Shown: piece by piece, positions 23,499 to 24,271 of the stretch
Numbering within the stretch: the stretch's first letter is position 1
Layout of the letters: each line of letters starts with the position of its first letter
Source of the DNA: Promethearchaeota archaeon
GTDB lineage: Archaea; Asgardarchaeota; Lokiarchaeia; Sigyniarchaeales; SOKP01
Assembly (NCBI GenBank): GCA_030599585.1
Contig: JAUVNS010000015.1
Coordinates: forward strand, 1 to 64,000
Direction: 5' to 3'
Length of the DNA: 64,000 nt
Notes under the pieces: generated by a model
Told to the model about the DNA's origin: nothing
The model's input: only the letters and a program-made list of their open reading frames with translations
Databases searched by the model: none
Position numbers and translations under genes: made by a program

Positions 23499-23583
23499 GC
23501 GGGAGTTGCCAAGTCTGGTCTACGGCGCTGGACTTAGAATCCAGTCTCAGAGGAGTTCGGGGGTTCAAATCCCTCCTCCCGCA
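23499..23583 (+). tRNA. tRNA-Leu(TAG), intronless
   Basis: GCGGGAG/CTCCCGC acceptor, CTGGA-CTTAGAA-TCCAG, long variable arm. Confidence 0.95.
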
Positions 23584-23744: not shown

Positions 23745-23876
23745 GCTTTCGTAGTGTAGTTCGGCCAATCTTTCCTAATAGGAAAGGGCTTGGCATGCTA
23801 GGCTTTCACCCTGGTGACAATACGATCCATGTCGGACCGTATCATTAACCGGGTTCGAATCCCGGCGAGAGCACCA
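23745..23876 (+). tRNA. tRNA-Glu(TTC) with two introns (23769..23792 D-loop; 23819..23848 variable/T-stem junction) and encoded CCA
   Basis: Removing both inserts gives a sequence collinear with tRNA-Glu(CTC); both inserts form BHB-type motifs. Confidence 0.88.
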
Positions 23877-23917
23877 TTAGTGATTAGTGGAAAGCATTGG
23901 AAAATTACCAGAACCCA

Positions 23918-24110
23918 GCCCCTGTAGCTCAGCTAGAATGTAAGGAAAAAGCACTGCTTCGGTGTGCTTGGCTAAGTAGAACACTGTAAAAGTGTATCAA
24001 AAGCACTCGGCTAAACGGTGAATCTATCACCGTTCCGAAAGTTAACCGGGCGGTCCCATGTTCGATATTGAAATCGGGCTCCGATCTCGACGGATTCCAT
24101 GGCGGGGGCG
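23918..24110 (+). tRNA. tRNA-Asn(GTT) with four introns
   Basis: Exons 23918-23936, 23976-23979, 24002-24012, 24041-24066 and 24097-24110 join to a 74-nt cloverleaf: GCCCCTG TA GCTC AGCTAGGTA GAGC A CTCGG CTGTTAA CCGGG CGGTC CCATG TTCGATC CATGG CGGGGGC G. Confidence 0.85.
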
Positions 24111-24271
24111 CTTTTCTTCTTCTTTATTTACTAACCTTTTACATTTTTGATAGGGGGAAGTTATTGGAGTTGTCAATCACTTAGATTGATATTTCTATCC
24201 TTATTTTCACCTGAGATGATAACAAATTCTTTATTAACTTCAAGTTCAACATCTATTTTTAATTGGAATTA

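What the first reader, a model, noticed from the sequence alone, without database searches (positions are those of the whole stretch)
23918..24110. tRNA-Asn(GTT) split by four introns, with a 4-nt micro-exon and probable ordered splicing
Seen: introns at 23937-23975 (position 18/19), 23980-24001 (22/23), 24013-24040 (33/34) and 24067-24096 (59/60). The last two have clear BHB-type motifs (TCGG CT^A..CCGA AA^G; TTCG AT^A..CGGA TT^C). Removing all four gives a canonical 74-nt tRNA-Asn, so 119 of 193 nt are intron. Exon 2 is only GTAG, and the central helix of intron 2 (GGT/ATC) is completed only after intron 1 is removed, implying ordered splicing. To my knowledge archaeal tRNAs are usually described with at most three introns, so standard tools may miss this gene. 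The D-arm junctions are the least certain.
Basis: partly seen in the sequence, partly recalled or inferred. Interest (0 to 1): 0.8.

Follow-up and report, generated by a model that had tools for sequence, protein, structure and literature searches.

The report
Four-intron tRNA-Asn gene in Asgard archaeon
This is the only asparagine tRNA gene found in a Loki-type Asgard archaeon; it is cut into five pieces (one only four bases long) by four small tRNA-type introns, which is striking but belongs to a pattern already reported for other Asgard archaea.

Summary
Joining 23918-36, 23976-79, 24002-12, 24041-66 and 24097-110 gives a 74-nt cloverleaf tRNA-Asn(GTT). ARAGORN and Rfam both miss the unspliced gene. 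It is the only Asn tRNA I found in a 100%-complete assembly.

Orthologues settle the exon joins. Each of the four inserts is absent at exactly these boundaries in at least one relative. The spliced D-arm equals the uninterrupted D-arm of a same-genus gene. One environmental copy has 74/74 identical exon bases but 24 intron differences.

Introns 3 and 4 have 4-bp central helices with outer helices: HBh' and strict hBHBh'. Intron 1 has a covarying 4-bp helix but a displaced outer helix. Intron 2 reaches 3 of 4 central pairs only once intron 1 is removed, so the order 1 then 2 is plausible but inferred. No RNA data could be obtained.

The genome encodes two EndA paralogues and RtcB.

Four-intron Asn genes are common in this family: 14 of 65 distinct genes surveyed, spread over five insertion sites. 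A 2026 preprint reports up to five introns per tRNA gene in other Asgard classes, so this is a new member of a known kind. Earlier notes of this scan flagged other multi-intron tRNAs and mRNA BHB introns in this same genome.

The parts
23918..23936 (+). Exon 1: acceptor 5' strand, nt 8-9, D-stem 5' strand and D-loop up to G18
   Evidence: Contiguous with GTAG in orthologues that lack the 18/19 intron (L005, L016, L011 and others).
23937..23975 (+). Intron 1 (39 nt, position 18/19). Central helix AGCT (23931-34) with GGCT (23970-73); bulges AG^A and AA^G; inner hairpin AAGCAC (23949-54) with GTGCTT (23964-69), displaced from the 5' bulge by 11 nt.
   Evidence: H=4, h=0, h'=1. The helix covaries across orthologues: C-G, T-A and T.G at the third pair. 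Shuffle P=0.007. 79% identical to the intron at the same site in the closest relative, G042.
23976..23979 (+). Exon 2: 4-nt micro-exon GTAG (G19 U20 A21 G22)
   Evidence: Needed to reproduce the D-arm GCTCAGCTAGGTAGAGCAC, which is uninterrupted in L005. The same micro-exon between two introns occurs in G042, G016 and 12 environmental contigs.
23980..24001 (+). Intron 2 (22 nt, position 22/23). Hairpin ACACT (23981-85) with AGTGT (23991-95); 3' strand of the central helix ATCA (23996-99); bulges AG^A and AA^A.
   Evidence: H=2 in the primary transcript and 3 after removal of intron 1; h'=5. Positional homologue of the sole D-arm intron of L011, L014, L015, L106, L108, L110 and L113. 91% identical in G042.
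24002..24012 (+). Exon 3: A23-C25 of the D-stem, A26, anticodon-stem 5' strand, C32, U33
24013..24040 (+). Intron 3 (28 nt, position 33/34). HBh' motif: TCGG (24007-10) with CCGA (24035-38); bulges CT^A and AA^G; 8-bp h' 24014-21 with 24027-34.
   Evidence: H=4, h'=8. Pair probability 0.9-0.99 in the primary transcript. Present in 21 of 26 same-genus genes; the first pair covaries T-A / C-G.
24041..24066 (+). Exon 4: anticodon GTT, anticodon-stem 3' strand, variable loop, T-stem 5' strand, T-loop up to U59
24067..24096 (+). Intron 4 (30 nt, position 59/60). Strict hBHBh': h is the T-stem, CCATG (24056-60) with CATGG (24098-102); H is TTCG (24061-64) with CGGA (24091-94); bulges AT^A and TT^C; h' is TTGA (24068-71) with TCGA (24087-90).
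   Evidence: H=4, h=5, h'=4. Pair probability about 0.6. Absent from the closest relative G042. Not alignable with the 59/60 introns of other genus members. The environmental copy L180 keeps the motif despite 6 substitutions in the intron (H4, h5, h'10).
24097..24110 (+). Exon 5: C60, T-stem 3' strand, acceptor 3' strand, discriminator G73; no encoded CCA
24111..24130 (+). T-rich 3' trailer (cttttcttcttctttattt), a likely archaeal oligo-T terminator
   Evidence: Read directly. The function is an inference only.

Best explanation
Window 23918-24110 (+) is the functional tRNA-Asn(GUU) gene of a Loki-type Asgard archaeon, and the only one I detected. It is probably transcribed as a precursor of about 193 nt. 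Four bulge-helix-bulge introns must be cut out by the archaeal splicing endonuclease (two EndA paralogues, consistent with the alpha-beta heterotetramer type). The exons are then joined by RtcB to give a canonical 74-nt tRNA. Introns 3 (33/34) and 4 (59/60) carry well-formed motifs that can fold in the primary transcript. The two D-arm introns flank a 4-nt exon, GUAG. The central helix of intron 2 uses A17a and G18 of exon 1 together with G19 and U20 of the micro-exon. It therefore becomes best formed only after intron 1 has been removed and exon 1 ligated to GUAG. That order would also keep the tetranucleotide from ever being released. Shown here: the exon structure, motif geometry, conservation and presence of the enzyme genes. 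Inferred: transcription, cleavage, ligation and the order of events.
For: (1) The spliced product is a canonical tRNA-Asn. An intron-free same-genus orthologue, 93% identical in mature sequence, scores 66.8 bits with Rfam tRNA. (2) Every insert is precisely absent in some orthologue. Intron 1 is absent in L005, L016 and L011. Intron 2 is absent in L002 and L008. Intron 3 is absent in L005 and L121. Intron 4 is absent in L104 and L003. (3) Selection acts on exons only. Environmental contig L180 has 74/74 identical exon bases against 24 differences in 120 intron columns (Fisher P=3.7e-6). (4) The BHB geometry lies at the exact boundaries, with shuffle P<=0.007 for each intron. The central helices of introns 1 and 3 covary, and the intron 4 motif survives 6 substitutions in L180. 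(5) No other Asn tRNA was found by BLAST of the mature sequence or by an anticodon-stem-loop scan, in an assembly rated 100% complete. (6) Two EndA genes carrying PF01974 and PF02778 and one RtcB gene are present. Asgard EndA is reported as the (alpha-beta)2 type with the loop linked to broad specificity (PMC5829648). (7) Order of splicing. In all sequences with both D-arm introns, the conserved C in the 3' strand of the intron 2 central helix faces G18 only after intron 1 is gone: H goes 2 to 3 in this gene, G042 and five near-identical environmental contigs, and 3 to 4 in L003, L175, L177 and L180. Pair probability rises from 0 to 0.14-0.16. The motif of intron 1 is unchanged by removing intron 2.
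Against: Intron 1 has no contiguous outer helix (h=0, h'=1), and its central helix has only 0.04-0.25 predicted probability. Under the preprint's strict rule it would not count as a canonical BHB. Intron 2 never exceeds 3 of 4 central pairs in this gene. [quoted passage not shown] The case for order rests on a single base pair plus a mechanistic argument. The assembly carries 8.9% contamination and is a draft of 52 contigs.
Confidence: 0.88

Rival explanations
1. The gene and its four introns are real, but splicing is not ordered. A broad-specificity EndA recognises all four relaxed or strict motifs independently in the primary transcript, and the micro-exon is retained by other means, such as coupled cleavage and ligation on a scaffolded precursor.
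For: Intron 2 already has a 5-bp h' and 2 central pairs in the primary transcript. (alpha-beta)2 and epsilon2 enzymes cut relaxed motifs (PMC5829648, PMC4090602). The gain on removing intron 1 is a single pair. Thermodynamic probabilities for both D-arm helices are low in every context.
Against: Simultaneous cuts would free a 4-nt GUAG fragment that has no evident pairing partner. The conserved C facing G18 in all 10 genus-level 22/23 introns is unexplained unless the exon 1 / exon 2 junction is part of the motif.
Confidence: 0.3
2. The D-arm carries one 65-nt intron (23937-24001) rather than two. This would give a 70-nt tRNA with D-stem GCUC/GAGC and a 5-nt D-loop lacking G19-G22, and GTAG would be intron sequence.
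For: G18 plus AGC of exon 3 would still form GAGC, so a 4-bp D-stem remains possible (sequence).
Against: The central helix for such an intron (AGCT with ATCA) has only 2 of 4 pairs by my hand count from the sequence, against 4 and 3 for the two-intron model. The product would lack the G18-G19 pair and would differ by a 4-nt deletion from all 65 orthologues surveyed. Orthologues carry either intron alone, at exactly the two-intron boundaries.
Confidence: 0.04
3. The locus is a decaying pseudogene, and the working tRNA-Asn lies in an unassembled part of the genome.
For: The assembly is a draft of 52 contigs, and tRNA genes are often unassembled in MAGs.
Against: All stems are intact. Exons are 100% conserved against diverged introns in L180, L183, L184 and L185. 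The same architecture is kept across several species and environmental populations. No other Asn gene was found in a 100%-complete assembly.
Confidence: 0.03

Closest known systems
[quoted passage not shown] 2024, PMC11291895; census preprint 10.64898/2026.10.13.758758)
   Same: Same phylum. Multiple non-canonical BHB-type introns per tRNA gene. The preprint found that D-arm inserts are the ones most often missed by tRNAscan-SE; here ARAGORN and Rfam miss the whole gene. Two EndA paralogues per genome. Introns are patchy among close relatives, which is consistent with repeated gains. 'Up to five in a single gene' is already reported.
   Different: This genome belongs to a Loki-type family (same order as genomes of the size of the cultured MK-D1-like strains), not to the classes those papers focus on. 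The text I could read gives 'other Asgard families' an average of 0.91 inserts per gene. It does not mention 4-nt exons, order-dependent motifs or nested introns.
Multiple-intron tRNA genes of Thermoproteales (Sugahara et al. 2007/2008; reviewed in PMC4033280 and PMC4090602)
   Same: BHB, hBH and HBh' introns at non-canonical sites, including the D-arm and 59/60. An (alpha-beta)2 EndA. Introns that vary between close relatives.
   Different: The reported maximum there is three introns per gene (PMC4033280). Those organisms are hyperthermophilic Crenarchaeota with related introns shared among different tRNAs. Here BLAST found no paralogous copies of the four introns elsewhere in the genome.
Ectopic and multiple tRNA introns of the red alga Cyanidioschyzon merolae (PMC3728597)
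   Same: BHB-like motifs at non-canonical positions, with several introns per gene.
   Different: That is a eukaryotic nuclear system with some permuted genes, unrelated in lineage. I checked only the abstract.

Membership tests
Archaeal EndA-spliced (bulge-helix-bulge) tRNA intron | [quoted passage not shown] | tested here: met
   Introns 1, 3 and 4 have 4/4 pairs at the exact boundaries. Intron 2 has 2/4 in the primary transcript and 3/4 after removal of intron 1, so it meets only the relaxed definition.
Archaeal EndA-spliced (bulge-helix-bulge) tRNA intron | At least one contiguous outer helix (h or h') of 2 bp or more | tested here: inconclusive
   Met for intron 2 (h'=5), intron 3 (h'=8) and intron 4 (h=5, h'=4). 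Not met for intron 1 in this gene (h=0, h'=1), whose 6-bp hairpin sits 11 nt from the 5' bulge. Relatives have h' of 3-7 at the same site.
Archaeal EndA-spliced (bulge-helix-bulge) tRNA intron | Removal restores a canonical tRNA identical in layout to intron-free orthologues | tested here: met
Archaeal EndA-spliced (bulge-helix-bulge) tRNA intron | Host encodes the splicing endonuclease and the RtcB ligase | tested here: met
   Two EndA ORFs of 200 and 201 aa with PF01974 and PF02778. RtcB at 567 bits. I did not examine the specificity loop (L1) or the catalytic residues.
Archaeal EndA-spliced (bulge-helix-bulge) tRNA intron | Demonstrated cleavage and ligation (spliced RNA) | not testable with these tools
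There were 0 metagenome contigs with the spliced junctions.
tRNA-Asn | Anticodon GUU, discriminator G73, class I cloverleaf with G18-G19 and a T-loop UUCGAUC | tested here: met
   ARAGORN call on the spliced sequence. The mature sequence is 84-96% identical to 25 same-genus Asn genes.
Multi-intron tRNA genes of Asgard archaea | Asgard host; two or more inserts per gene, including D-arm inserts that annotators miss | tested here: met
   The closest named MAGs are 'Promethearchaeia/Promethearchaeota archaeon'. There are four inserts. ARAGORN and Rfam miss the gene. tRNAscan-SE itself was not available.

The most novel reading that the evidence does not exclude
EndA splicing in this Loki-type family is programmed and recursive. 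Some BHB motifs exist only across a freshly ligated exon junction: intron 2 here needs exon 1 joined to the 4-nt exon. Others exist only while a neighbouring intron is still present: in relatives, the 63/64 intron pairs with the last bases of the 59/60 intron. Others are nested inside another intron: 60-nt inserts in sister genera. Together these would impose a fixed splicing order and allow 4-nt exons, a layer of RNA-processing logic that the papers I could read do not describe for archaeal tRNA introns.
Probability: 0.45. Interest if true: 0.6.

Novelty: new member of a known kind. Interest (0 to 1): 0.42.

Why it matters
The only asparagine tRNA found in this organism, and therefore all of its translation, would depend on four successive cut-and-join reactions. 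One of them involves a 4-nt exon. The case extends heavily interrupted tRNA genes, recently reported in other Asgard classes, to a Loki-type family. It also gives a well-resolved natural series: the same gene with 0 to 4 introns at five sites in close relatives. That series can be used to study intron gain and loss and the substrate rules of the Asgard splicing endonuclease. In practice, standard tRNA finders miss the gene entirely, so automated annotation would score this genome as lacking tRNA-Asn.

Tried and rejected
- **Spliced junctions in metagenomes.** An exact search of metagenome contigs for a 34-nt sequence spanning junctions 1-3 gave 0 hits. It therefore found neither cDNA-like contigs nor an intron-free copy with this exact sequence.
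- **Intron copies elsewhere in the genome.** BLAST of the four introns against the whole genome found no convincing paralogues. The best hit was a 16-nt match on C47 at E=0.017. It did not look like another intron and I treated it as chance without checking the reading frame. This gives no evidence that these introns were copied from elsewhere in the genome.
- **Origin of intron 4.** Its identity to other 59/60 introns in the genus is 0.48-0.67, within the shuffle background (mean 0.56, maximum 0.77). Common origin is not supported.
- **Single 65-nt D-arm intron.** Rejected; see the rival explanations.
- **ARAGORN as a test of D-arm junctions.** Brute-force deletions in the neighbouring Glu gene showed that ARAGORN accepts dozens of alternatives, so I did not rely on it.
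- **Species tree.** I built none, so I make no claim about the number or direction of intron gains.

Full report
**What is in the window**

Joining 23918-23936, 23976-23979, 24002-24012, 24041-24066 and 24097-24110 gives 74 nt. ARAGORN folds that product as tRNA-Asn(gtt). It has a 7-bp acceptor stem, a GCUC/GAGC D-stem, the D-loop AGCUAGGUA, a 5-bp anticodon stem, the T-loop UUCGAUC and discriminator G73.

The unspliced gene is invisible to ARAGORN, with or without intron mode. It is also invisible to Rfam, both at gathering thresholds and at E<=10.

The window is contig C3 of a 4.85-Mb archaeal assembly with 32.6% GC and 52 contigs. The assembly is rated 100% complete with 8.9% contamination. 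The closest named relatives of its thermosome gene are MAGs labelled Promethearchaeia or Promethearchaeota, that is, Loki-type Asgard archaea.

**Is it the only Asn tRNA?**

BLAST of the spliced sequence against the whole assembly hits only the exons of this locus. A scan for a contiguous GUU anticodon stem-loop finds nothing tRNA-like. ARAGORN over the genome reports 36 candidates and no Asn.

**Comparative test of the exon joins**

I recovered orthologous tRNA-Asn genes from three sources: 42 genomes of the same genus, 81 genomes of the order, and metagenome contigs. I aligned each to the mature sequence with a spliced dynamic-programming aligner.

Sixty-five distinct genes fall into classes with 0, 1, 2, 3 and 4 inserts, numbering 10, 12, 8, 21 and 14. 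The inserts sit at five sites: 18/19, 22/23, 33/34, 59/60 and 63/64. One gene instead carries an insert near position 36 (L147).

Each of the four inserts of the window gene is absent, at exactly the proposed boundaries, from at least one orthologue:
- L016 is intron-free and scores 66.8 bits as Rfam tRNA.
- L005 has only a 59/60 intron. Its uninterrupted D-arm, GCTCAGCTAGGTAGAGCAC, is letter for letter the spliced D-arm proposed here.
- Genes with only the 18/19 intron have GTAGAGCAC contiguous. Genes with only the 22/23 intron have AGGTAG contiguous.
- The closest relative, G042 (L104, 96% mature identity), has introns 1-3 at 79-91% identity but no 59/60 intron.

Twelve environmental contigs carry the same arrangement of two D-arm introns around GTAG. 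Four of them (L180, L183, L184, L185) have all four introns at homologous positions. L180 has 74/74 identical exon bases against 24 differences in 120 intron columns (Fisher P=3.7e-6). This is strong evidence that the five exons are under selection as one tRNA while the inserts are not.

**Splicing motifs**

I use the standard geometry: a 4-bp helix H, two 3-nt bulges each cut after the second nucleotide, and outer helices h (exon side) and h' (intron side).

| Intron | Position | Central helix H | Outer helices | H pair probability in the primary transcript |
|---|---|---|---|---|
| 4 | 59/60 | 4/4 | h=5 (the T-stem), h'=4; strict hBHBh' | about 0.6 |
| 3 | 33/34 | 4/4 | h'=8; HBh' | 0.9-0.99 |
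| 1 | 18/19 | 4/4 (AGCT with GGCT) | h=0, h'=1 | 0.04; about 0.24 once intron 3 is out |
| 2 | 22/23 | 2/4 in the primary transcript, 3/4 after intron 1 is removed | h'=5 | about 0; 0.14-0.16 after intron 1 is out |

- For intron 1, the third pair of H covaries among orthologues (C-G, T-A, T.G).
- In this gene the 6-bp hairpin of intron 1 is separated from the 5' bulge by 11 nt. Relatives have a contiguous h' of 3-7 bp.
- At the exact boundaries, at most 0.7% of 20,000 shuffles of each intron matched the observed values.
The orthologues, not the motifs, fix those junctions.
- ARAGORN accepts many arbitrary D-arm deletions, so a cloverleaf call alone would not have sufficed.

**Order of splicing**

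The 5' strand of intron 2's central helix is A17a-G18 from exon 1 plus G19-U20 from the micro-exon. In the primary transcript the first two positions are instead the terminal AA of intron 1.

All ten 22/23 introns in the genus keep a C opposite G18. In every sequence with both D-arm introns, removing intron 1 adds that one pair:
- H goes from 2 to 3 in this gene, G042 and five near-identical environmental contigs.
- H goes from 3 to 4 in L003, L175, L177 and L180. In L177 this gives a canonical HBh' only after removal.

The motif of intron 1 is unaffected by intron 2. There is also a mechanistic argument: simultaneous cleavage would release a free GUAG tetranucleotide. The order 1 then 2 is therefore the most economical reading. 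It still rests on one base pair and on inference. I put it at roughly 60%.

**Machinery**

The genome has two EndA paralogues of 200 and 201 aa, both with the N-terminal and catalytic domains. It has one RtcB. Published work assigns Asgard archaea the (alpha-beta)2 enzyme with the insert associated with relaxed-motif cleavage (PMC5829648). I did not examine that loop here.

**Comparison with the literature**

Valentin-Alvarado et al. (PMC11291895) found that 92-95% of tRNA genes are interrupted in Atabeyarchaeia and Freyarchaeia, with more than half carrying multiple introns. A preprint of October 2026 (10.64898/2026.10.13.758758) reports:
- up to five inserts in a single gene;
- D-arm inserts as the class most often missed by tRNAscan-SE;
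- two EndA paralogues in most genomes;
- repeated gains.

Its focal classes are Jordiarchaeia and Atabeyarchaeia. The words Lokiarchae- and Promethearchae- do not occur in its text, and no supplement was available.

The window gene is thus a new member of a known kind. It lies in a family where the trait is common: 14 four-intron Asn genes in at least four combinations. All ten intron-free genes come from other lineages: eight from the sister family with MK-D1-sized complete genomes, and one each from G003 (this genus) and G080 (another genus of this family).

**Limits**

- There are no RNA data.
- There is no species tree, so gains versus losses are not resolved.
- The taxon is inferred from the record titles of relatives.
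- tRNAscan-SE was not run.
- Related genomes are not independent, so counts of genes overstate the number of independent events.

Noticed in passing
window 23745-23877 (+): A second hidden tRNA lies 41 nt upstream: tRNA-Glu(TTC) with an encoded CCA. It is interrupted by a D-region insert of about 23 nt (near 23771-23793) and by a 30-nt insert at 23819-23848, which is absent from the orthologue in L005. Rfam and ARAGORN do not report it. With tRNA-Leu(TAG) at 23499-23583 it forms a Leu-Glu-Asn cluster that is syntenic in relatives.
   Followed up: partly
L002, L006, L007, L019, L108 (same genus); e.g. L002:1710-1906: Genes with both the 59/60 and 63/64 introns have a 4-nt CCAT micro-exon. Their 63/64 motif is complete only in the primary transcript. 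There H is aaCC/GGTT (4 bp) plus h cgag/CTCG (4 bp), built with the last bases of the 59/60 intron. After that intron is removed it drops to ATCC/GGTT (3 bp, h=1). Genes without the 59/60 intron have GGAA or similar instead of GGTT. This suggests an order dependence opposite to the D-arm case. The five genes share homologous introns, so it counts as one lineage.
   Followed up: partly
L169:194-423, L171:184-380, L172:198-394 (sister genera of the same family): The 60-nt inserts at 63/64 look like an intron nested in an intron. As one intron they give H=0-1. An inner 30-nt piece has H=4. In L171 and L172 its removal regenerates the usual 30-nt 63/64 intron (ATCC/GGAA AA^G); in L169 the regenerated helix is weaker (2 of 4 pairs in the primary context). 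L169 (G090) would then carry five intervening sequences.
   Followed up: partly
whole genome G000 (ARAGORN): ARAGORN finds only 36 tRNA candidates in a 4.85-Mb genome rated 100% complete. Several are implausible: 'introns' of 457 to 2889 nt, Phe(aaa) twice, and a Pyl(cta) call. No Asn or Met is reported, so much of the tRNA set is probably hidden by non-canonical introns.
   Followed up: no
window about 23893-23908, and the same offset in L002, L004, L005, L006, L007: The motif GCATTGGAAAAT(A/T)A is conserved about 10-25 nt upstream of the tRNA-Asn 5' end across orthologues, while the surrounding spacer varies. It could be a promoter or a processing element. I did not examine it.
   Followed up: no
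G008: L004 (C430) and L019 (C148): One MAG holds two tRNA-Asn alleles on small contigs. Their 5' halves are identical (introns 18/19 and 33/34). Their 3' halves differ: one has only the 63/64 intron (GGAA type), the other has 59/60 plus 63/64 (GGTT type). This could be strain-level intron polymorphism or a mixed bin.
   Followed up: no
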